Positions 25,961 through 58,590 of a stretch of 64,000 nucleotides of DNA are shown in pieces. Within the stretch, counting starts at the first letter, position 1; each line of letters opens with the position of its first letter. A program made the position numbers and the translations under genes. Source of the DNA: a virus. Taxonomy: Duplodnaviria > Heunggongvirae > Uroviricota > Caudoviricetes. A model generated the notes under the pieces. That model did not search any database and was not told where the DNA came from. It saw only the letters and a list, made by a program, of their open reading frames with translations. The stretch lies in the IMG/VR virus record IMGVR_UViG_3300008262_000026. One strand, given 5' to 3'.

Positions 25961-26692
25961 ATGTTCCAATTCGCAGAAGTCGGTGGTGCAGTTCGGGATA
26001 AGTTCCTGGGACTGGATTCCAAAGACGTTGATTTTGTTGCTGTTCCTGAAAATGCTGATACCTTTCTGAATGCAGATGCCGCATTTATGTTTCTCTGCAC
26101 TCACCTGAAAGAACAGGGGTTCAAAGTATTTCTGGAAACTCCTGAATTCTTTACTGTTCGGGCACAAGTTCCTGATGGTCATCCACTGAAAGAACGCACT
26201 AATGTTGCTGATTTTGTGCTTGCCCGTAAGGATGGTCCCAGCAGTGATGGTCGCCGCCCTGACTTTGTTCTGCCCGGAACCCTGATGGATGACCTGCAGA
26301 GACGGGATTTTACCGTCAATGCGATGGCAATTCTGAATGGGGAACTGGTGGATCCATTCGGGGGCAGGAACGATCTGGAGGAGGGTCTGCTGCGGTTTGT
26401 GGGTGATCCTACCCAACGCATCGCAGAGGACGGTCTGAGGGTCATGAGGGCACTGAGGTTCTTTGTAACTAAAGGGTTTAATATGGATGCCGATACTTGG
26501 GATGCAATCAACAGTGATTTTGCTGCTGAAATGCTGACCAAAGTATCTGTAGATCGTATCCGTGAGGAACTGGAAAAAATGTTCTTTACGAATACTCTGT
26601 GGAGTCTGAAAGTTCTGGATGATTTGAATACCGAAGTTCGCAAGGCAATCTTCCGTGATGGCCTGCGTCTGATGCCCACTCTGAAAAAGTAA
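25961..26692 (+). CDS. nucleotidyltransferase, poly(A) polymerase/CCA-adding enzyme head-domain family
   Basis: GGAVRD...DVDF (GGxVRD plus DxD) signature of class II tRNA nucleotidyltransferases. Only 243 aa. Confidence 0.6.
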   Translation: MFQFAEVGGAVRDKFLGLDSKDVDFVAVPENADTFLNADAAFMFLCTHLKEQGFKVFLETPEFFTVRAQVPDGHPLKERTNVADFVLARKDGPSSDGRRPDFVLPGTLMDDLQRRDFTVNAMAILNGELVDPFGGRNDLEEGLLRFVGDPTQRIAEDGLRVMRALRFFVTKGFNMDADTWDAINSDFAAEMLTKVSVDRIREELEKMFFTNTLWSLKVLDDLNTEVRKAIFRDGLRLMPTLKK

Positions 26693-45013: not shown

Positions 45014-45226
45014 ATGACTCTTTCCGCTAAAACAGTTCTGAATCTTGCTGCTGCTCTTACGCCAGAAGTTATAGATTACATTAACAACGACGAGCGATGG
45101 GTTGAACTAATGATGGAGGTGATTCCTGATGCACTTGAGAGTAAAATTGGGAAACTTGATTGCGACCTGATGATGGAACTTTCTATGTGCATTATGGATA
45201 GGATTTACCTGAAAACTAGCACCTGA
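45014..45226 (+). CDS. hypothetical protein
   Basis: Plus-strand ORF. Confidence 0.45.
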   Translation: MTLSAKTVLNLAAALTPEVIDYINNDERWVELMMEVIPDALESKIGKLDCDLMMELSMCIMDRIYLKTST

Positions 45227-45244
45227 TTATATCAACGAGGAAGG

Positions 45245-45360
45245 GAGTTTTGCCTCGCTTAAGTAAATAAAGTGACTTCCGCAGAGTGTAGATAATTCCA
45301 GAAGGATGTGGTTGTATATGAGAGGGGACTGGTAATCTCCTCTTTTTTATACTTTGTGAT
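45245..45360 (+). ncRNA. conserved ~115-nt non-coding element copy 1, ending in terminator hairpin with loop ACTGGTAAT (candidate sRNA)
   Basis: GGAAGGGAGTTTTGCCTCGCTTAAGTAAATAAAGTGACTTCCGCAGAGTGTAGATAATTCC...GAGAGGGGACTGGTAATCTCCTCTTTTTT. Confidence 0.4.
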
Positions 45361-45521
45361 TTTTCGGAGATTTCATCCTAGCACACCTCCCATAGTACCT
45401 GAACGCAGAATCACCGATTTTTTGGAAAACAGACCCCAGTGATACCAAGGGTTCTCAGCGGGTCTCACCTGAGACTGCCTGCCCATACCAGCATCCGCAG
45501 CAGAATCCCAAGAATGATAAT

Positions 45522-45556
45522 AACTGGGCCCGTGAAAGTGCATCAGTAGTATGAGC
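45522..45556 (+). promoter_or_regulatory. motif B copy 12
   Basis: Contains the ATG of a 56-aa ORF (45551..45721). Confidence 0.6.
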
Positions 45557-46064
45557 GGAACCCAAATGTTTCACATCTACCAAACTCAACCTGACGGTAG
45601 TGTAGAACTACTGTATGAGACTTACGATGAAGAAGCGGCAGAGAATGAGGTTGAACGAATCAACTCTAATCTGCAACGTGCGGGTATTCCATCGTGGGTC
45701 AGCTGCGCACACTATTCCTGATGATTGACTTTATTGCTATCTCGTTTTTCTCTTTTCCTATTGCATTATCATTTGCATTGGAAAACGATTCAAGTAAAGA
45801 AAATGGCAATGCAGTATTTCTTTGTTCTTCATTTTACTTAGTTTATCTCATACTTATTGCCATTTTCTTTAACCATTAAAAATGACTCAAAACGATTATA
45901 CTGACTACATTCAAGAGAAAGGTTATACTCTTGCTGAATGTAAGCGTCCATCCTATCCTCAGGTTCCCGAAGATATGCGGGACATTTACAAAACTTATGA
46001 AGAGTATCGTGCTGCTCTTCACGACTTTCTCAACGGAAACTGAACCTCTTACTTAACACACAAA

Positions 46065-46490
46065 ATGGTTACTCTGACTTCTAACTATAAGCAATCTCTG
46101 CAACCTGAAACTATAGAGAAGATTGAAAAACTCATTGAAGATTCCTATGATTATGTCCTGGAGGATATTCTGGACTTCATTGATACTCATAGTGAGAGTG
46201 ATTTTATGACCTACTATGAGGAATACTACGATAAAGTAGAAGAATTCGGTATGGATGTTGTAGAAGATTTCATCAGCGAATTCTACATTGATTCTTTGGA
46301 CAGTGTTGGAGAAGCTTATCGTGGAAACTATTACTCTGCGGGTGATTTTGCAGAATCTTATTGTGAAGAAATGGGATACGATATTCCTGATTTCATTGTA
46401 GTTAATTGGGAAGAAACTTTCAGTCGTAATCTATGCTATGATTTCGTTTATACTGAAAGCAATGGTAATGTATTCTGCAAGAATTGGTGA
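46065..46490 (+). CDS. hypothetical acidic protein
   Basis: Plus-strand ORF. Confidence 0.5.
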   Translation: MVTLTSNYKQSLQPETIEKIEKLIEDSYDYVLEDILDFIDTHSESDFMTYYEEYYDKVEEFGMDVVEDFISEFYIDSLDSVGEAYRGNYYSAGDFAESYCEEMGYDIPDFIVVNWEETFSRNLCYDFVYTESNGNVFCKNW

Positions 46491-46494
46491 GTAT

Positions 46495-46529
46495 AACTGG
46501 GCCCGCGAAAGTGCATCAGTAGTATGACG
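46495..46529 (+). promoter_or_regulatory. motif B copy 13
   Basis: Contains the start codon of ligase 46524. Confidence 0.6.
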
Positions 46530-47450
46530 ACCAAACAAATGCAAAACATTCATATTGACCATCCAGAAGATTGTATCCTGACGGGCAATCTGTCGGTTCT
46601 TGATTGGTTTTATGATGCTGATTCTAGCATCAGTGTGAAACTTGATGGTGCCCCGGCATTAGTGTGGGGAACTAACCCGCAGAATGGTAAGTTTTTTGTC
46701 TGCACGAAAGCAGCATTTAACAAGCAAAAGATTCGCCTTTGCTATAATGAAGATGATGTTTTCCAGCACTTTGGTCATCAGCATCGCGTAGCACAAATCC
46801 TCATTTTCTGCCTGGACTTCCTGCCTCGCACTAAACAAGTGCTGCAAGGTGATTGGATTGGTTTTGGTAAGGGTTTGGATACCTTTACTCCCAACACGAT
46901 TACCTATAAGTTTCCTGAGGTAATTCGTCAAGAGATTATCATTGCTCCGCACACGATTTACAGTGGTGCTGATGATATTCGTGAGATGACTGCTGCTCCT
47001 CTGACTAGCAAACTCATCAGCACTAAGGATTGTCTTTTCGTGCAACCTGAGGTGTCGCTGAATCCTCATCGTGAAGATTTGGAAGAGGTGTGTAACTTTG
47101 CTAGGCAAATGAGTACGCTGTGTGAGTTTGTGAGCGAAAAGAAAGCATCACAAATCAAAAAAGAGATTAACGCTTGCATCCGTGAGCAAAGGGACGTTTG
47201 TGAGTATGAAATCGCAGAAAAATGCGATTGTGATAAGAACCTGATTCGTTTGTGGAAACTGGTTGCATCTATCAAGATGGATTTGTTCCTGTTCATTGAT
47301 AGTAGCACGGACATTCGCTGCGAGATTGAAGGTAAGTTCAGCGACCACGAAGGTTATGTTATCGTGAATCAATTTGGAATGATGAAAGTGGTTGACCGTG
47401 AGACTTTCTCTTGTGCAAACTTTACGATTGCAAAAAACTGGGCAAAGTGA
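46524..47450 (+). CDS. ATP-dependent polynucleotide ligase family protein (Rnl1-like, second ligase)
   Basis: Motif I VKLDGAP, motif IV DHEGYVIV, motif V MMKVVDR. Start inside motif B copy. Confidence 0.5.
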   Translation: MTTKQMQNIHIDHPEDCILTGNLSVLDWFYDADSSISVKLDGAPALVWGTNPQNGKFFVCTKAAFNKQKIRLCYNEDDVFQHFGHQHRVAQILIFCLDFLPRTKQVLQGDWIGFGKGLDTFTPNTITYKFPEVIRQEIIIAPHTIYSGADDIREMTAAPLTSKLISTKDCLFVQPEVSLNPHREDLEEVCNFARQMSTLCEFVSEKKASQIKKEINACIREQRDVCEYEIAEKCDCDKNLIRLWKLVASIKMDLFLFIDSSTDIRCEIEGKFSDHEGYVIVNQFGMMKVVDRETFSCANFTIAKNWAK

Positions 47451-47454
47451 CTAT

Positions 47455-47489
47455 AACTGGGCCCGTGAAAGTGCATCAGTAGTATGAGC
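47455..47489 (+). promoter_or_regulatory. motif B copy 14
   Basis: Contains start of 47484. Confidence 0.6.
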
Positions 47490-47807
47490 AACACCGTTAC
47501 GATGGACCTTTCCACTGTAGACCAGCAAATCCGCATCCTTGATTCACTCAATGAGATTGCGTATATGAAGGTGAGTTCTTCTAATCTTGGTGGGACTACT
47601 TCATACTTCCTGCATATCTCACTGGACAAAAAAGAGGACTGGGTGAATAACATTTTTCACAACAGTCGCTATGCTATTTTTGCACTTCAATCCGGTAAGA
47701 TTGAACTGATTGCGAAACACTATCAAATGCCTAAGTTTCGTAAGTGCAATATCAAATCTGCTGCCCAAGTTGCGGAAAAGATTGCATCCTACTGCATTAA
47801 CAACTGA
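47484..47807 (+). CDS. hypothetical protein
   Basis: Starts in motif B. Confidence 0.45.
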   Translation: MSNTVTMDLSTVDQQIRILDSLNEIAYMKVSSSNLGGTTSYFLHISLDKKEDWVNNIFHNSRYAIFALQSGKIELIAKHYQMPKFRKCNIKSAAQVAEKIASYCINN

Positions 47808-47812
47808 TTATT

Positions 47813-48037
47813 ATGACTGACGCACAAAAGATTGAGTTTATTGTTAAGTTGCTGCAAGAGACAGCAAATAAAACTCACTGCAAAGATGGTGACGATTATG
47901 AAGATTATGACTCTGCGGATGAATGGTACAATCCAGCAGATAATGGTAATTTTGATGATGCTTTTGCAGATGGAGAAATCTGTGGAGAAATAGAATATGC
48001 CCGTACTATTCTTGCAAAGATTCAAGAACTGAACTAA
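47813..48037 (+). CDS. hypothetical acidic protein
   Basis: Plus-strand ORF. Confidence 0.45.
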   Translation: MTDAQKIEFIVKLLQETANKTHCKDGDDYEDYDSADEWYNPADNGNFDDAFADGEICGEIEYARTILAKIQELN

Positions 48038-48067
48038 CAACTGATTCACACTTAGCATTGAACACAA

Positions 48068-48391
48068 ATGACTAATCAAGGCAAACAATGTGAAAGGTGT
48101 GGTAAAGGCACCTACGAAATCGCTGACTTGAATGATGAAATTCACGGTGAACTTCATTGTAACAACTGCGGGCACTTTAGTAAACTTAATTCTACACCCA
48201 AAACGAAAGAAATCAAGTCCGTCATTGTAACACGTTCCATTGAGTATTCTCCCGAAGCATATCTTGAATGTTGCAAAGAAGATGATGAAGAACCCACACA
48301 AGAAGGTTTCATTGAATTCATCCAAGATTGGATTTATGATGACTTTAGGTGTGGTAACACTGCACAAGAAATCACCACTCTGAACTACTAA
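48068..48391 (+). CDS. hypothetical zinc-ribbon protein
   Basis: CERCGKG...CNNCGHF. Confidence 0.45.
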   Translation: MTNQGKQCERCGKGTYEIADLNDEIHGELHCNNCGHFSKLNSTPKTKEIKSVIVTRSIEYSPEAYLECCKEDDEEPTQEGFIEFIQDWIYDDFRCGNTAQEITTLNY

Positions 48392-48579
48392 TGGAAACTG
48401 CATTCGTCACGCCTAAGTCTAAGAAAGCAAAGAACAGGTTTGCTAATCTTATGGAGTCAAATCCTGAATGTTTCGTAGAACAAGACAAGGGAAATCGTTT
48501 CTTTCTGTGTTCTGCAAATAGCAAATACTTTTTCTGGGTTGACCTGAACAATGACCCAAATTGGCAAGTGGAGTTCTGA
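48391..48579 (+). CDS. hypothetical protein
   Basis: Plus-strand ORF. Confidence 0.4.
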   Translation: METAFVTPKSKKAKNRFANLMESNPECFVEQDKGNRFFLCSANSKYFFWVDLNNDPNWQVEF

Positions 48580-48731
48580 ATCAAAATGAATATGACACCC
48601 AAACTGTATGTTTTCGGCAACTATGATACAGGTGAAATGGTATCAGTAACCGCATCTTGTCTCACTGCCGCAACTGCAAAACTTCGTGATGATTATGAAT
48701 ATCACAACTTCTACGTTGAGTCACTGACTAC

Positions 48732-48766
48732 AACTGGGCCCGTGAAAGTGCATCAGTAGTATGACC
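48732..48766 (+). promoter_or_regulatory. motif B copy 15
   Basis: Contains start of 48761. The upstream ORF reads into the motif and stops at its TGA. Confidence 0.6.
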
Positions 48767-49102
48767 CCCAATCGCTTTCCAATGAACTTCAACGACATTC
48801 ACGATAGCATCAATCTTGCGTCCAAACTTGCCAAGGACAACTATGATGCTCGCAACGGTATCATTGACCGTCTGAATGAGACTGTTGTTGTTGATGTTCG
48901 TTCCCGTGCATCATATATTGCTGGTGAATGTTCGTACTATTTTCCGCTGCACAATCAGAACGGCGATAAGATTAACGAGGTCAAACTCTATTGTCGTTGT
49001 TCTCCCACTGTCAAAGGAGGAATTCGTTATTCCTATAAATTGAATGGTAAGGTCATTCCTCGTCATAAAATTGCCCAACGAATGAGTGATTTGGGAGTCT
49101 AA
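48761..49102 (+). CDS. hypothetical protein
   Basis: Starts in motif B. Confidence 0.45.
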   Translation: MTPNRFPMNFNDIHDSINLASKLAKDNYDARNGIIDRLNETVVVDVRSRASYIAGECSYYFPLHNQNGDKINEVKLYCRCSPTVKGGIRYSYKLNGKVIPRHKIAQRMSDLGV

Positions 49103-49256
49103 AACTTCTATGTCAAATGAACACTCACACCTCCTACTCAATGCCTAGTTTTTCAACCAGAGTTCTTGCCTTTCTGAATACTCTTACTGATGAACAGTTA
49201 GATGATTTCAGTGACGATGACATTATGCAACACATTCTAAATCAAGAGGAAAACCA

Positions 49257-49565
49257 GTGAAAAAGTATCAAGAACTGGAACAAAAGATTCGTGAACTTCA
49301 ACAAGAAGTAAATCGCCTGAAAGAAGAAGAAAAAGAGAACAAGATTCCTGATCTTTTTAATCTTGAACCCACACTTGAAGTTCTAAAGAATCCAAGGAAG
49401 AATTATGGTCGGTTGATTTTATCTTTTGAATGGGTTCTTACTCCTCAAGGTCATACGCATTGGGGAAACCTTTGCAGCGGAAACAAACCACTGACCGACC
49501 AGGATATTATTCAACTTCAAAAGTGGGTGATTCTTTACTATCAACAACAACAGAAATCCAAATGA
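49257..49565 (+). CDS. hypothetical coiled-coil protein (tandem paralog 1)
   Basis: MKKYQELEQKIRELQQEV...DQDIIQLQKWVILYYQQ. Confidence 0.5.
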   Translation: MKKYQELEQKIRELQQEVNRLKEEEKENKIPDLFNLEPTLEVLKNPRKNYGRLILSFEWVLTPQGHTHWGNLCSGNKPLTDQDIIQLQKWVILYYQQQQKSK

Positions 49566-49855
49566 AAAAGTATCAACAACTAGAAGAGAAAATCAAAGAA
49601 CTTCAACAAGAAGTAGAGCGTCTGAAAGAAGAAGAAAAAGAGAATAAACTTCCTGATTATTTCAAGATTGAAAAAGTTCTTGAGTTTCTAGAAGATACCA
49701 GTAAAGTTTGGTTGATTGATGAATGTTTTACTTGGGAATCTACTCCTCAAGGTGATGACTACTGGTGCGAACTTAGTGAGGAACTACGCCCAGTGAATGA
49801 CCAGGATATTATTCAACTCCAGAAGTGGGTGATTCTGTATTATCAACAGAACTGA
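49564..49855 (+). CDS. hypothetical coiled-coil protein (tandem paralog 2)
   Basis: MKKYQQLEEKIKELQQEV...DQDIIQLQKWVILYYQQN. The track's 49430 start is a read-through extension. Confidence 0.5.
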
Positions 49856-49861
49856 AAATGA

Positions 49862-49975
49862 GGAAGAAGTTTGCCTCAATTCACAAACAAAAGTGACTTC
49901 GTAGAGTGTGAATAATTCAATAGGATAGGTGATTGGGTGTATGAAGCAAGGACTGGTAATCCTTGCTTTTTTTAT
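49862..49975 (+). ncRNA. conserved ~115-nt non-coding element copy 2 (candidate sRNA)
   Basis: GGAAGAAGTTTGCCTCAATTCACAAACAAAAGTGACTTCGTAGAGTGTGAATAATTC...GCAAGGACTGGTAATCCTTGCTTTTTTT. Stem covaries with copy 1 and the loop is identical. Confidence 0.4.
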
Positions 49976-50289
49976 TGCTTATGAAAGATAAAAGGTATTA
50001 AAAACAATTAAAAAGCCATTTTTAAATATAAACGTGTAATTAAGCTGTGTGATACTTATTATGATTAAAGGGTGATTTTGATAAGAATTCGTATCAAATA
50101 GGGTTGGTCATTTAATACACTCAGAACCCTTAATAATCCATTTAAATCCTTCTAGACCCCTTAGTATTCTCATTTAAATCCAGCCAGGTCTTGTGATCTT
50201 AGCGAGCGTACCATAAGAAACGCAATTTGTCAAGGGATAACCACCGCCGCGAGATTTTGAAATCCTCATAAGGGACTCACAAAAGTATC

Positions 50290-50300
50290 AGAGGTGCTTA
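50290..50300 (+). promoter_or_regulatory. T4-type late promoter box TATAAATA
   Basis: CTTATAAATACTCC upstream of ORF 50317. Confidence 0.35.
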
Positions 50301-50316
50301 TAAATACTCCACGAAC

Positions 50317-50547
50317 TTGACAGAATCCTCAAGTTGTCGTACAGTAGCTACACGCACTAATTGGAGCAAAGTTCAGATGGTTTCGTCTTACGCACTGGCA
50401 CAAAAGAAGAAAGTTCGTGTAACCCTGGAACTCAATGTGTTTCAGGATTTTGATGCAAAACAGATTGATTTTGAAAAACTGTTTGAATTGGAACCTGCCG
50501 AAAGTGTGCAGGTCTACGTTGAGGATTTCTCTGAGAATCCTTGGTGA
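50317..50547 (+). CDS. hypothetical protein
   Basis: Preceded by exact TATAAATA at about 50293. Start may be the internal MVSSYA. Confidence 0.4.
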   Translation: MTESSSCRTVATRTNWSKVQMVSSYALAQKKKVRVTLELNVFQDFDAKQIDFEKLFELEPAESVQVYVEDFSENPW

Positions 50548-50558
50548 TTTCTATAACG

Positions 50559-50636
50559 CTCTGAGACCCCTGTAGAATCGCCTACAAGGGGCATCTGAAC
50601 CCTTGGATATACTTTGGGATACCCAAGGGTTTTTTA
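50559..50636 (+). terminator. two consecutive hairpins (GACCCCTGTAG.../...CTACAAGGGG and CCCTTGGATAT...ATACCCAAGGG + T6)
   Basis: Second hairpin is followed by TTTTTT. The first shares the GACCCCTGTA arm with the 37516 hairpin. Confidence 0.5.
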
Positions 50637-56679: not shown

Positions 56680-58590
56680 ATGGCATTAGTTAATTTTACT
56701 AATTTAGACTTCGACCAAATAAGATCCTCAATTCGCGAGTACTTAAGAGCGAATTCAAATTTTACTGACTATGACTTTGAAGGATCAAATCTCTCAACAC
56801 TCATTGACGTTTTAGCATATAATACCTACATTTCCTCATACAATGCTAATATGATTAGCAATGAGGTTTTTATTGATAGTGCAACTCTCAGGGAAAATGT
56901 AGTCTCTTTGGCAAGGAATATTGGATATGTTCCCCATTCTCGCTCCTCTTCAAAGGCAAATATTTCATTTTTTGTAGATACAACTGGATTTTCGACTAAT
57001 CCTCTTACCCTAACTCTTAAATCCGGGGTTGTTTGTACAACCAATACAACTTTTGGTAATCAAAGTTTTTCCTTCATAATTCCGCAAGATATAACAATTC
57101 CCATAGTGAATGGAATTGCTTTATTTGAAAACATAAACATTTTTGAAGGAACATTCGTAGTTAATAATTTCACGGTAGATGCAAATAACCCAAATCAAAG
57201 ATTTATCTTAGACAATCCAAATATTGACATAGATTCTATTAATGTTTTTGTCAGAGATACTCAATCAAGTACTATTAGAAGATCCTTCAAATTATCAAAA
57301 AATCTTTTTCAGATTAATTCAGAATCAAGTGTTTTCTTCATTCAGGAAATTGAAGATCAGAGATATGAATTAATTTTTGGTGATGGAATTTTTGGGAAAA
57401 AACTTGAGAATTTAAATTATATTGAAATCTCTTATACTATCACAAATGGGCCGGCGGCTGATGGGGTATCATCATTTTCATTTAATGGTCGTATTGTTGA
57501 TAATAACAATAGAGTTATCACGTCTGGCATTTCTCTAATCACAACAAATTCTTCCTCACAAAATGGAAGAGAAATAGAATCAGTAGAGTCTATTAAAAAG
57601 TATGCTCCAAGAAAATATTCTGCGCAAAATAGAGCTGTAACAGCAACTGATTATGAGACAATCATTCCGACAATCTATCCCGAGGCAGAATCTATATCTG
57701 TTTTTGGTGGAGAAGATTTAAGTCCTCCAAAATACGGAAAAGTTTTTATTAGTATAAAACCAATTAATGGACCTTTTGTTTCCAATCAGGTTAAAGATAA
57801 CATTATAAACTCTTTGCGAAGGTATGCTGTTGCGGGAATAGTACCTGAAATTATTGATCTAAAATATCTCTACATCGAATCCAACACCACTGCATATTAT
57901 AATTCGAATTCTACATCCGATCCCAATTACCTAAAGGATATTATTCTAACGAATATAAAGAATTATGCGAATTCAAAAGAACTTAACAAGTATGGAGCAA
58001 GATTTAAGTATAGTAAATATTTAAAAATCATAGACGATACTAATACTGCAATCACTTCAAATATAACCAAAATAGTAATACGACGCGATTTGAGGGCAGA
58101 AGTGAATAAATTTGCCGACTATGAGATTTGTTATGGTAACGAATTTCATATTAAAAATTATTCTGGATATAATATTAAGTCTTCTGGTTTCAATGTATCA
58201 GGAATAAATGATACTCTTTATTTGTCTGACATTCCTAATAGTGATGGATTAACCGGAAGTATTTTCTTCTTTAAATTACAATCATCCAATACTCCAATAA
58301 TTGTAAGAAAAAATGTCGGAAAAATTGACTACAAAAAAGGAGAAATAAACCTGTACCCAATAAATATAACTTCTACGGCAAAATCATCATATTCGTTCCC
58401 TATAATTCAAATTTCAGCAGTTCCAAAGTCAAATGATGTGATCGGATTGCAAGATTTATATTTACAACTAGATATTAATAATAGTTCGTTAAATATGTTA
58501 TCTGATGAAATTTCTTCTGGTTCAGATATATCTGGATCAACCTATAAGTTTACATCAAGCTACACTAACGGAGACCTTGTAAGAATATAA
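56680..58590 (+). CDS. 6: baseplate wedge protein gp6
   Basis: 636 aa. N-terminus MALVNFTNLDFDQIRSSIREYL...LIDVLAYNTYI is typical of T4-like/cyanomyovirus gp6. Synteny with gp25. Confidence 0.7.
   Translation: MALVNFTNLDFDQIRSSIREYLRANSNFTDYDFEGSNLSTLIDVLAYNTYISSYNANMISNEVFIDSATLRENVVSLARNIGYVPHSRSSSKANISFFVDTTGFSTNPLTLTLKSGVVCTTNTTFGNQSFSFIIPQDITIPIVNGIALFENINIFEGTFVVNNFTVDANNPNQRFILDNPNIDIDSINVFVRDTQSSTIRRSFKLSKNLFQINSESSVFFIQEIEDQRYELIFGDGIFGKKLENLNYIEISYTITNGPAADGVSSFSFNGRIVDNNNRVITSGISLITTNSSSQNGREIESVESIKKYAPRKYSAQNRAVTATDYETIIPTIYPEAESISVFGGEDLSPPKYGKVFISIKPINGPFVSNQVKDNIINSLRRYAVAGIVPEIIDLKYLYIESNTTAYYNSNSTSDPNYLKDIILTNIKNYANSKELNKYGARFKYSKYLKIIDDTNTAITSNITKIVIRRDLRAEVNKFADYEICYGNEFHIKNYSGYNIKSSGFNVSGINDTLYLSDIPNSDGLTGSIFFFKLQSSNTPIIVRKNVGKIDYKKGEINLYPINITSTAKSSYSFPIIQISAVPKSNDVIGLQDLYLQLDINNSSLNMLSDEISSGSDISGSTYKFTSSYTNGDLVRI

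What the first reader, a model, noticed from the sequence alone, without database searches (positions are those of the whole stretch)
45245..49975. Two copies of a conserved ~115-nt non-coding element ending in a covarying terminator hairpin with invariant loop ACUGGUAAU
45245..45360 and 49862..49975 are alignable over their length (...AAAGTGACTTC(C/G)...AGAGTGT(A/G)(G)ATAATTC...GGACTGGTAATC...T6-7). The terminal stems differ (GAGAGGGG/CTCCTCTT against GCAAGG/CCTTGC) while the 9-nt loop is identical. That is classical evidence for a functional RNA structure. Neither copy overlaps a plausible ORF. Each is followed by further non-coding sequence. The loop again contains ACTGG, which is shared with both promoter-like families.
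Basis: seen in the sequence. Interest (0 to 1): 0.6.

Follow-up and report, generated by a model that had tools for sequence, protein, structure and literature searches.

The report
New phage RNA: pseudoknot plus terminator
The two repeats are real copies of a previously undescribed, about 115-nucleotide structured RNA found only in uncultivated relatives of T4-like cyanophages; it sits right after the last gene of an early operon, folds into a covariation-supported helix (probably a pseudoknot) and ends in a classical transcription terminator whose loop always keeps the letters UGGU, but what it binds or regulates is still unknown.

Summary
Observation confirmed. A covariance model finds exactly two copies in the window, 45236-45349 and 49859-49973 (E about 1e-16). 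It finds 71 distinct homologues in viral and metagenome contigs, one per locus. It finds none in Rfam 15, in four cultured relatives tested at the syntenic locus (S-SM2, Bellamy, SynMITS9220M01, P-TIM68), or by exact-pattern scan of 185,579 prokaryote genomes. The window is a T4-like myovirus of the cyanophage kind.

The element has four parts:
- A nearly invariant GAGG/CCUC stem.
- A crossing helix GGGAGU/ACUUCC, kept in every member through at least 8 sequence types.
- A linker with an almost invariant AGAUAAU and a G/U-rich stretch.
- An intrinsic terminator with 29 different stems.

The "invariant 9-nt loop" holds only for part of the family; only UGGU is universal. The element is non-coding. 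It starts 3-17 nt after the stop codon of at least 19 unrelated small genes, and no conserved promoter lies upstream. Copy B is the ancestral, syntenic copy.

Best reading: a structured RNA module at the 3' end of an operon. It terminates transcription and probably survives as a stable RNA that binds an unknown partner. Riboswitch-like attenuation found no support, because no conserved antiterminator exists. This is a new RNA family of a known general kind.

The parts
45236..45349 (+). Copy A of the element, whole (second, non-syntenic copy)
   Evidence: Covariance model R1, 95.9 bits, E 1.4e-16, full model length. It starts 9 nt after the stop codon of ORF 45014-45226.
45236..45257 (+). Copy A, stem P1: CGAGG (45236-45240) pairs with CCUCG (45253-45257). 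The loop between them holds the 5' strand of the second helix.
   Evidence: Read from the sequence. In the family GAGG/CCUC is nearly invariant, with one A-U to U-A double change and a variable outer pair (helix 1). The pairing is inferred.
45243..45280 (+). Copy A, helix P2: GGGAGU (45243-45248) pairs with ACUUCC (45275-45280). It crosses P1, giving an H-type pseudoknot if P1 forms. An A-rich loop with invariant AAAGUG lies in between.
   Evidence: RNAalifold predicts this helix. It is kept in 62 of 62 parsed sequences through 15 strand combinations. 99.5% of cells are paired and 4 of 6 pairs have double changes.
45290..45296 (+). Copy A, AGAUAAU block in the linker (AGAUAAU in most members, GAAUAAU in a few including copy B)
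   Evidence: ATAAT invariant and AG 90% or more conserved in the 63-sequence alignment; AGATAA invariant in the 16-sequence seed. No covarying partner was found.
45305..45319 (+). Copy A, G/U-rich stretch (GGAUGUGGUUGUAUA). The family consensus is GGUGGUUGGGUGUAUA.
   Evidence: Alignments. Extra hairpins are inserted inside this stretch in L132, L170 and L206, so it is probably exposed.
45320..45348 (+). Copy A, intrinsic terminator: stem GAGAGGGGA / UCUCCUCUU, loop CUGGUAA (45329-45335), T-run 45343-45348
   Evidence: Terminator scan. Fold energy -13.5 kcal/mol. All 8 modelled stem pairs covary in the family.
49859..49973 (+). Copy B of the element, whole (the syntenic, ancestral position)
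   Evidence: Model R1, 101.1 bits, E 1.4e-17. It starts 3 nt after the stop of ORF 49562-49855. The downstream region is homologous to that of most other members.
49859..49878 (+). Copy B, stem P1: UGAGG (49859-49863) pairs with CCUCA (49874-49878)
   Evidence: Sequence; also predicted by the single-sequence fold.
49866..49900 (+). Copy B, helix P2: GAAGU (49866-49870) pairs with ACUUC (49896-49900). This is the 5-bp version; both strands are one nucleotide shorter than in copy A.
   Evidence: model alignment.
49910..49916 (+). Copy B, GAAUAAU block (variant of AGAUAAU)
49927..49942 (+). Copy B, G/U-rich stretch AGGUGAUUGGGUGUAU
   Evidence: Its best duplex within the promoter-family leaders is with the leader of gene 48761 (-22.1 kcal/mol); this may be chance.
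49943..49973 (+). Copy B, intrinsic terminator: stem GAAGCAAGGA / UCCUUGCUUU, loop CUGGUAA (49953-49959), T-run 49967-49973
   Evidence: fold energy -13.2 kcal/mol, z -2.25.
45014..45226 (+). Upstream gene of copy A (70 aa, PHROG 37859/3438, unknown function). It is the last gene of the unit that starts at the promoter-like motif 43919.
49257..49855 (+). Two tandem paralogous genes upstream of copy B (49257-49565 and 49562-49855). They are the last genes of the unit that starts at the promoter-like motif 48732.
   Evidence: (305-nt direct repeat).
49974..50628 (+). Conserved region downstream of copy B. It holds an AT-rich block, lineage-specific repeats, ATAAATA, a TTGACA-N17-TACAGT promoter (50317-50345), the 57-aa gene 50377-50547 (PHROG 12516) and a terminator at 50612-50628.
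   Evidence: It is context, not shown to be part of the RNA.

Best explanation
The element is a structured RNA module transcribed as the 3' end of an early-gene operon of a T4-like (cyanophage-type) myovirus.

Shown:
- It is non-coding and strand-specific.
- It is conserved in at least 71 distinct uncultivated phage sequences.
- It has one strongly covarying helix, GGGAGU/ACUUCC.
- It ends in a canonical intrinsic terminator (a G+C-rich hairpin of 7-10 bp plus U6-8), so host-type RNA polymerase is expected to stop there. In the syntenic copy B this stop lies just before a conserved intergenic region that carries a strong sigma-70-type promoter.

Inferred:
- The invariant GAGG/CCUC stem combines with the covarying helix into an H-type pseudoknot, with an A-rich third loop, at the extreme 5' edge of the element.
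- With a pseudoknot at one end and a terminator hairpin at the other, the ~115-nt piece should resist exonucleases. It would then persist after the coding part of the mRNA decays, as a 3'-UTR-derived small RNA.
- The sequence-invariant, apparently unpaired parts contact a trans-acting partner, either a protein or an RNA, that is not yet identified. These parts are AAAGUG, AGAUAAU, the G/U-rich GGUGGUUGG stretch and the UGGU terminator loop.
For: Family and specificity:
- Two copies in the window at E about 1e-16 to 1e-17, nothing else above noise.
- 95 hits, 71 distinct, one per locus.
- No Rfam family matches.
- Absent from the four cultured relatives tested and from an exact-pattern scan of prokaryote genomes.

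RNA-level structure:
- 97.7% of cells paired against 86.8% in shuffles. 14 of 19 pairs have double changes. 0 of 500 shuffles reach the observed values, and slid controls give 54-72%.
- The 5' helix is kept through GGGAGU/ACUUCC, GGAGU/ACUCU, GAUGU/ACAUC, GGGGU/ACCCU, GUGGU/ACCAU, GAGGU/ACCUU and GAAGU/ACUUC. This includes a joint one-nucleotide shortening of both strands.
- G-U pairs are frequent, for example 42 sequences at one pair. They would be C-A on the other strand, so the structure belongs to the + strand RNA.

Non-coding.

Terminator: (29 different 5' arms, mean -15 kcal/mol, T5-7 within the model's cut; U6-8 in the full sequences).

Selection on the loop: UGGU is present in every full-length member examined, although those members were found with patterns that do not include the loop.

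3'-UTR position without its own promoter:
- The element starts 3-17 nt after the stop of at least 19 unrelated ORF families.
- There is no information peak upstream.

Both copies are maintained. A and B are 70% identical to each other, and each is closer (74-76%) to copies in other phages.

Extra hairpins are inserted at two fixed places, before GAGG and inside the G/U stretch. This fits a modular RNA with exposed segments.
Against: - No expression data exist. Neither termination, nor a stable 115-nt species, nor any partner has been observed.
- The pseudoknot rests on one well-supported helix plus a stem that almost never varies: one compensatory change in 70 sequences.
- The covariation alignment was fitted to the model for two of the three helices.
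- A test for complementarity between the G/U stretch and translation start regions gave only a weak signal, largely explained by composition. ACCA/CCAA is not enriched upstream of start codons. No RNA target is therefore identified.
- Terminators with the same ACUGGUAAU loop but without the 5' domain exist in other viral contigs. The loop may therefore serve termination itself rather than a partner specific to this element.
Confidence: 0.45

Rival explanations
1. It is only a cis-acting end-of-operon signal. On this view it is an efficient terminator and insulator combined with a 3' stabiliser for the upstream mRNA. The pseudoknot and the conserved blocks improve termination or block ribonucleases, and there is no trans-acting role.
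For: - Canonical terminator.
- It always lies directly after a stop codon and has no promoter.
- Copy B sits just before a promoter-rich conserved intergenic hub that would need insulation from read-through.
- The same terminator loop also occurs without the 5' domain in other viral contigs.
Against: - A plain hairpin is enough for termination and 3' protection. About 75 nt of strongly conserved sequence upstream, with invariant unpaired blocks, is more than that role needs.
- The cultured relatives tested, which share the downstream hub and the 57-aa gene, have no model match in the same 6-kb region.
- Usually one copy per locus at a fixed position, not at the end of every operon.
Confidence: 0.25
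2. It is a regulated terminator, either riboswitch-like or protein-dependent attenuation or antitermination. The pseudoknot domain senses a ligand or factor and decides whether RNA polymerase reads through into the downstream region.
For: - The architecture is the standard one for transcriptional riboswitches: an H-type pseudoknot with an A-rich third loop, then a linker, then an intrinsic terminator. The preQ1-I riboswitch is built this way (own knowledge).
- Loops and P1 are invariant while P2 covaries, which suggests a conserved tertiary core.
Against: - No conserved alternative (antiterminator) pairing exists. Complementarity between the P1 3' strand and the terminator 5' arm is no better than for shuffled arms (4.52 against 4.12 contiguous pairs). 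A mutual-information scan found no long-range covariation beyond the known helices.
- No gene follows directly. The next gene has its own sigma-70-type promoter.
- No Rfam riboswitch model matches, even at E up to 10 on the isolated element.
Confidence: 0.15
3. The 3' half is a separate small RNA gene. AGATAAT would act as a -10 box with AAAGTG upstream. It would drive a ~50-nt RNA consisting of the G/U-rich 5' end and the terminator hairpin.
For: - AGATAAT is a 5-of-6 match to TATAAT, is almost invariant and has no pairing partner.
- AAAGTG also occurs in the 22-copy promoter-like family of this phage.
- A shortened version, TAGAGTAGTAAT followed by GGGTAG and the same hairpin, occurs without the 5' domain in L135 and L177.
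Against: - No -35 element at a workable distance. Spacing from AAAGTG to the -10 is 14-16 nt here, against 6 nt in the promoter family.
- The stretch between them (ACUUCC) covaries with GGGAGU upstream. This is an RNA-level constraint and implies transcription from further upstream.
- The consensus promoter scan does not call a promoter ending at that box in copy A.
Confidence: 0.1
4. It is a DNA-level element, for example part of a replication origin or a cluster of protein-binding sites, next to the AT-rich and repeat-bearing region downstream.
For: An AT-rich block and lineage-specific direct or inverted repeats follow copy B and its homologues. That layout resembles origin or operator regions. 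T4 oriE combines a small untranslated RNA with iterons (own knowledge, not checked here).
Against: - Compensatory changes with many G-U pairs are strand-specific and have no meaning for duplex DNA.
- Copy A has a different downstream sequence.
- The hairpin plus U-run is a standard RNA terminator.
Confidence: 0.05

Closest known systems
Intrinsic (Rho-independent) transcription terminators
   Same: The last 30 nt are a G+C-rich hairpin of 7-10 bp followed directly by U6-8. They run in the same direction as the upstream gene, and the stems covary freely.
   Different: Ordinary terminators have no conserved loop and no 75-nt conserved structured leader. Here UGGU in the loop and the two G-C pairs below it are kept across 29 stem variants.
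3'-UTR-derived bacterial small RNAs that share the terminator of the upstream mRNA (e.g. CpxQ, SroC; own knowledge)
   Same: - Position immediately after a stop codon.
- No promoter of its own.
- The terminator forms the 3' end.
- Conserved unpaired segments lie in the middle.
   Different: No processing site, target or chaperone is known here. The upstream genes are unrelated between phages, so the RNA is not tied to one mRNA. It is phage-encoded.
preQ1-I riboswitch (Rfam RF00522) and other small H-type pseudoknot riboswitches
   Same: - Same topology: a 5-bp P1, a second helix formed by the P1 loop with a downstream strand, an A-rich connecting loop, and then an intrinsic terminator.
- P1 even reads AGAGG/CCUCU, as in the Bacillus subtilis aptamer (own knowledge).
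   Different: - No match to the Rfam model, even at E up to 10.
- P2 is 5-6 bp instead of 3-4 bp.
- About 45 nt separate the pseudoknot from the terminator.
- No conserved antiterminator.
- Not upstream of queuosine genes or of any directly following gene.
Pseudoknot operator of T4 gene 32 mRNA (own knowledge; reviewed in PMC3014915, which I did not read in detail)
   Same: An H-type pseudoknot in a T4-like phage mRNA, followed by an A/U-rich, apparently unstructured stretch that could nucleate protein binding.
   Different: The T4 operator lies in the 5' leader of gene 32 and controls its translation. This element lies after a stop codon, ends in a terminator and precedes no gene.
Lambda nut boxA/boxB type elements (own knowledge)
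   Same: A conserved linear block plus a hairpin whose loop is conserved while the stem covaries. That is the signature of a hairpin read by a protein.
   Different: In nut sites the hairpin is not itself a terminator, and the element lies upstream of the terminators it overrides. No boxA-like sequence was looked for specifically.

Membership tests
Intrinsic terminator | G+C-rich stem-loop directly followed by a run of at least 5 U | tested here: met
   One search gives stems of 9 and 10 pairs with T6 and T7. The family folds average -15.2 kcal/mol and most members have at least T5-6.
Intrinsic terminator | Lies at the 3' end of a transcription unit, in the same direction as the gene | tested here: met
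   The start of the element lies 3-17 nt after a same-strand stop codon in most of 81 instances.
Intrinsic terminator | Actually stops RNA polymerase | not testable with these tools
   Needs Term-seq or in vitro transcription.
H-type RNA pseudoknot | Second helix formed between the loop of the first hairpin and a downstream strand, supported by covariation | tested here: met
   GGGAGU/ACUUCC: 99.5% of cells paired and 4 of 6 pairs with double changes. 15 strand combinations all pair.
H-type RNA pseudoknot | First helix (GAGG/CCUC) really forms together with the second | tested here: inconclusive
   Three of 5 pairs never vary. There is one A-U to U-A double change, in L144. The outer pair varies, with 19 of 60 unpaired. 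The loop lengths (2, 3 and about 17 nt) are sterically compatible, by inference.
Any Rfam 15 family (including preQ1-I, T-box, tRNA, Y RNA/YrlA, small ribozymes) | Match to the family covariance model at or near the gathering score | tested here: not met
   No hit at gathering thresholds. At E up to 10 only weak terminator-driven hits appear, such as L20 leader at 21 bits against 58.7 required.
Transcriptional riboswitch / attenuator | Conserved alternative pairing (antiterminator) that competes with the terminator | tested here: not met
   P1 3' strand against terminator 5' arm: 4.52 contiguous pairs, compared with 4.12 for shuffled arms. No other long-range covariation.
Transcriptional riboswitch / attenuator | Controls a gene that follows directly | tested here: not met
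   Between 100 and 700 nt of non-coding DNA follow. The next conserved gene has its own TTGACA-N17-TAnAnT promoter.
Stand-alone small RNA gene | Own promoter upstream of the conserved 5' edge | tested here: not met
   43 non-redundant upstream regions aligned at GAGG show no conserved motif. There is only A/T richness from stop codons.
3'-UTR-derived small RNA | Shares the terminator of the upstream mRNA and begins just after its stop codon | tested here: met
   (position); the transcript itself was not observed.
3'-UTR-derived small RNA | Accumulates as a discrete processed RNA and acts on targets through a conserved seed | not testable with these tools
   The complementarity test to start regions was weak: mean z -1.54 over 54 loci, mostly a composition effect.
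Protein-coding small ORF | An open frame conserved across homologues | tested here: not met
   65 of 68 members have stops in all three frames, and block spacing is not kept modulo 3.

The most novel reading that the evidence does not exclude
The element is a phage-made regulatory RNA released from the 3' end of an early operon. Its 5' pseudoknot stalls 5'-to-3' decay in the way exonuclease-resistant viral RNAs do. Its repeated UGG motifs, in the GGUGGUUGG stretch and the UGGU loop, capture a specific partner. That partner could be C/A-rich leaders of the phage's own early mRNAs, the CCA ends of tRNA or of the tRNA-like RNAs encoded 15 kb upstream, or a host RNA-binding protein. Capture would time the shut-off of early expression. 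A riboswitch sensing an unknown ligand is a second reading that is not excluded.
Probability: 0.15. Interest if true: 0.75.

Novelty: new member of a known kind. Interest (0 to 1): 0.55.

Why it matters
Few structured RNAs are known from T4-like cyanophages beyond tRNAs, a handful of riboswitch-like motifs and one antisense RNA. This family is well supported by covariation and is absent from Rfam 15. It is confined to an uncultivated, apparently freshwater or estuarine branch related to S-SM2, Bellamy and P-TIM68.

It combines three things:
- A probable pseudoknot.
- Invariant unpaired blocks.
- A terminator whose loop is under selection, which ordinary terminators do not show.

It therefore gives a concrete, testable candidate for RNA-based control at the boundary between early transcription units. 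It also gives a covariance model that can be used to annotate such phages in metagenomes. It does not by itself change a concept, because its function remains to be found.

Tried and rejected
1. Known RNA family. Rfam was searched at gathering thresholds on the whole window, at E up to 10 on 44.9-50.4 kb, and on one isolated consensus-like member. Only terminator-driven noise came back.

2. Close relatives among 50,697 deposited phages.
   - No DNA match for the region or for the consensus element.
   - Cultured phages that share the downstream 57-aa gene (S-SM2, Bellamy, SynMITS9220M01, P-TIM68) have no significant model hit in a 6-kb locus centred on that gene.

3. Host or prophage copies. 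The pattern scan of 185,579 prokaryote genomes gave three chance matches, with weak model scores.

4. Small peptide. The TTG-initiated frame after GAGG has variable length and frame, and stops occur in all frames.

5. Own promoter upstream. None is conserved.

6. Link between the loop's ACTGG and the 22-copy promoter-like family. The loop varies at those positions. The promoter motif, by a strict pattern, is present in only 22 of 110 element-bearing loci.

7. Ribosome-coupled mechanisms (read-through, frameshift, unfolding by a terminating ribosome). The distance from the stop codon varies from 3 to 41 nt, and a 26-nt hairpin can be inserted between them. The upstream genes are also unrelated to each other.

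8. Antiterminator pairing. No excess was found.

9. A central helix between AUAAU and the stretch before the terminator. Single-sequence folds predict it in some members, but the 3' partner is not conserved and no covariation appears.

10. Pairing of the G/U stretch with a site in the downstream conserved region. The AACCACC seen in the window is not present in most other loci.

11. Pairing with translation start regions.
    - Leaders of the promoter family pair better than background, at -12.3 against -9.4 kcal/mol. Reversed seeds, however, give -10.6.
    - Across 54 loci the mean z is only -1.54.
    - ACCA/CCAA is not enriched before start codons.

12. tRNA anticodon-loop or D-loop mimicry, and T-box-like UGGN-NCCA pairing. 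These are resemblances from memory only. No T-loop partner or other tRNA-like feature was seen by eye, and no Rfam tRNA or T-box hit appeared.

13. Literature. Two full-text searches, two papers opened.
    - The S-CREM1 paper reports only Rfam hits of other families.
    - The survey of 10,006 viral candidate RNAs may contain this motif, but its supplements are not held.

Full report
**What is in the window**

The three shared blocks are AAAGTGACTTC, AGAGTGTRRATAATTC and GGACTGGTAATC. Each occurs exactly twice in the 64 kb, at the two sites. Both copies end in the two strongest terminator-like hairpins of the 43-53 kb region. Their stems differ and their loops are the same, as reported.

The window belongs to a T4-like myovirus of the cyanophage kind:
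- It encodes a gp6-type baseplate wedge protein (56680-58590), about 58-61% identical to those of Synechococcus phages B23, S-SM2 and Bellamy and of Prochlorococcus phage P-TIM68.
- No deposited phage is close at the DNA level.
- Genes run on the + strand.
- A 22-copy promoter-like motif (AACTGGGCCCNNNAAAGTGCATCAGTAGTAT) punctuates 21.5-53.5 kb.
- Each copy of the element closes a run of small genes that starts at one of these motifs, 43919 for copy A and 48732 for copy B.

**Is it more than chance, and how widespread is it?**

Exact-pattern scans of IMG/VR and of JGI metagenome contigs brought in about 110 loci that carry the element. The patterns were taken from different parts of the element. 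A covariance model built from 16 of them gave these results:
- In the window it finds exactly two sites, 49859-49973 (101.1 bits) and 45236-45349 (95.9 bits). The next hit scores 12.8 bits.
- In 100 sources it finds 95 sites, 71 distinct, one per locus.
- Rfam 15 has no matching family at any threshold tried.
- The consensus finds nothing among 50,697 deposited phages.
- A specific pattern finds only chance matches in 185,579 prokaryote genomes.
- The model finds nothing in 6-kb loci centred on the shared 57-aa gene in S-SM2, Bellamy, SynMITS9220M01 and P-TIM68, which cover the syntenic position.

The family is therefore real, phage-specific and so far confined to uncultivated relatives.

**Anatomy**

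The consensus reads AGAGGAAGGGAGUUUGCCUCU, then N8, then GUAAACAAAGUGACUUCCGUAGAGUAUAGAUAAUUYC, then N8-12, then GGUGGUUGGGUGUAUA, then a stem, a loop and the returning stem, and finally U6-8.

Three helices were examined on the model-guided alignment, with the first written in as a pseudoknot:
- **(i) GGGAGU with ACUUCC.** 99.5% of cells are paired and four of six pairs show changes on both sides. Parsing the sequences by anchors shows 15 strand combinations, all complementary. They include GAUGU/ACAUC, GGGGU/ACCCU, GUGGU/ACCAU and GAGGU/ACCUU, and a joint loss of one nucleotide on both strands. RNAalifold predicts this helix on its own.
- **(ii) The terminator stem.** All eight modelled pairs covary, and 29 different 5' arms occur.
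- **(iii) GAGG with CCUC.** This stem encloses the 5' strand of helix (i), so the two would form an H-type pseudoknot. It is almost invariant. There is one A-U to U-A double change (L144) and a variable outer pair. It is plausible but not proven.

Overall, 97.7% of cells pair, against 86.8% in column shuffles and 54-72% when partners are slid. No shuffle out of 500 reaches the observed values. The caveat is that the alignment was fitted to helices (i) and (ii).

Frequent G-U pairs make the structure specific to the + strand RNA. A mutual-information scan adds one local covariation: the base before and the base after GUA, C...G or U...A, in 98% of sequences. It finds nothing long-range.

The middle of the element has no supported helix. 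It does hold an almost invariant AGAUAAU and a G/U-rich stretch. Extra hairpins are inserted into that stretch in three lineages.

**The loop**

The loop ACUGGUAAU is identical in the two copies. The searches that did not use the loop return several variants: CUGGUAA (25 distinct members), AGUGGUUA (14), GUGGUG (11), CUGGUUA (8) and AUUGGUAAC, among others. Only UGGU and the two G-C pairs beneath it are universal. This is still unusual for a terminator and argues for selection on the loop. It removes the supposed link to the promoter families through ACTGG.

Terminators with the ACUGGUAAU loop but without the 5' domain occur in a few other viral contigs, directly after unrelated genes.

**Coding potential and context**

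- In 65 of 68 distinct members, stops occur in all three frames. The conserved blocks shift frame relative to each other.
- The element starts 3-17 nt (up to 41 nt) after the stop codon of a same-strand ORF. These ORFs fall into at least 19 unrelated families.
- Upstream sequences aligned at GAGG show no conserved promoter.
- Between 100 and 700 nt without a convincing gene follow. In about 70 loci this region is homologous. In order, it holds:
  - an AT-rich block;
  - lineage-specific direct or inverted repeats;
  - an ATAAATA motif;
  - a TTGACA-N17-TAnAnT promoter;
  - a 57-aa gene of PHROG 12516.
- Copy B of the window (gene at 50377-50547) sits in this syntenic place. Copy A has a different downstream sequence.
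- The two copies are only 70% identical, and each is nearer to copies in other phages. Both are therefore old and maintained.

**How it most likely works**

- *Shown:* a non-coding, strand-specific, structured RNA element at the end of an operon, ending in a canonical intrinsic terminator.
- *Inferred:* it is transcribed from the operon's promoter and stops host-type RNA polymerase before the next, promoter-rich region. It is then protected at both ends, by the pseudoknot at the exact 5' edge of conservation and by the terminator hairpin at the 3' end. It would therefore persist as a ~115-nt RNA. Its invariant unpaired blocks and UGGU loop would bind a partner.

I give this 0.45.

**Rivals**

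- Plain terminator and stabiliser with no trans role: 0.25.
- Regulated terminator or riboswitch: 0.15. It is weakened by the lack of any conserved antiterminator and of a directly following gene.
- Separate ~50-nt RNA driven from AGATAAT: 0.10. It is weakened by the RNA-level covariation that spans the putative promoter spacer.
- DNA-level element: 0.05. It is contradicted by strand-specific compensatory changes.

**Search for a target**

- The G/U stretch pairs somewhat better with the C/A-rich leaders of the promoter family than with background windows. Reversed seeds do nearly as well.
- Across 54 loci the mean z against dinucleotide shuffles is -1.54.
- ACCA/CCAA is not enriched before start codons.
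- The best single duplex is copy B with the leader of gene 48761, the first gene of its own operon, at -22.1 kcal/mol. It is among the top sites of the window but could be chance.

**Comparison with known systems**

The 3' part is a member of the intrinsic terminators by every sequence criterion. The whole element works like a 3'-UTR-derived small RNA in its position, and like small pseudoknot riboswitches in its architecture. It fails the membership tests for any Rfam family and for a riboswitch expression platform.

It is best filed as a new RNA family of a known general kind: a phage non-coding RNA or terminator-linked motif.

Interest is moderate (0.55). It is a solid new motif with an unusual conserved terminator loop, and its function is open.

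Noticed in passing
window 28093-30274 (+ strand): A 488-aa DUF2828/DUF7788 protein (PHROG 850 'RNA-binding protein'; Ro/TROVE-like is my reading from memory, untested) is followed at once by three tRNA-like RNAs, at 29670-29786, 29898-30015 and 30162-30274. Each has acceptor, D and T arms. Each carries a 43-60-nt insert at the anticodon stem-loop (within the loop in one, replacing most of the arm in two). They match Rfam tRNA at 45-55 bits, but ARAGORN does not call them. They look like YrlA-type Y RNAs or intron-bearing tRNAs. A CCA-adding enzyme gene lies at 25961-26692.
   Followed up: partly
window 21573-53453, 22 sites on the + strand: The promoter-like family AACTGGGCCCNNNAAAGTGCATCAGTAGTAT has 22 sites. 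In many sites the ATG of the next gene lies only about 13-25 nt after the TAGTAT box. Leaders would therefore be very short and C/A-rich, with no Shine-Dalgarno sequence. By a strict pattern, the motif occurs in only 22 of 110 loci that carry the element.
   Followed up: partly
window 49974-50628: A conserved intergenic hub lies after copy B. It holds an AT-rich block and then repeats that differ by lineage: GTGATA... in this phage, TTCTCAATAAG/TTATTGAGAA or TGTGGAAAAGTA x3 in others. An ATAAATA motif follows (T4-late-promoter-like by memory; not tested), then a TTGACA-N17-TACAGT promoter (50317-50345), then a 57-aa gene (50377-50547, PHROG 12516) shared with S-SM2, Bellamy and P-TIM68, and finally a terminator at 50612-50628. 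It could be an operator or origin-like control region.
   Followed up: partly
window 49236-49855: Two tandem paralogous genes (49257-49565 and 49562-49855) were created by a ~305-nt direct repeat that is 74-88% identical over its matching stretches. Both match PHROG 16354 weakly.
   Followed up: no
loci L185, L238, L251, L264 (before the element); L132, L206 (inside it): A short G+C-rich palindromic hairpin, GCGCTTGCGC with variable flanks, is inserted at different places in different phages. In some it lies between the stop codon and GAGG. In others it lies inside the G/U-rich stretch. This suggests a small mobile or recurrently arising hairpin.
   Followed up: no
loci L135/L165/L177, L121, L169: Terminator hairpins with the same GGACUGGUAAUC top occur directly after unrelated genes in other viral contigs, without the 5' pseudoknot domain. 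The loop motif may therefore have a role in termination or RNA stability beyond this family.
   Followed up: partly
element columns 51 and 55 of alignment A4 (window 45280/45284 and 49900/49904): The base before and the base after the conserved GUA, just 3' of the second helix, covary as C...G or U...A in 98% of sequences. The same 5' base also pairs with a G in the helix. A base triple or a local turn is possible.
   Followed up: no
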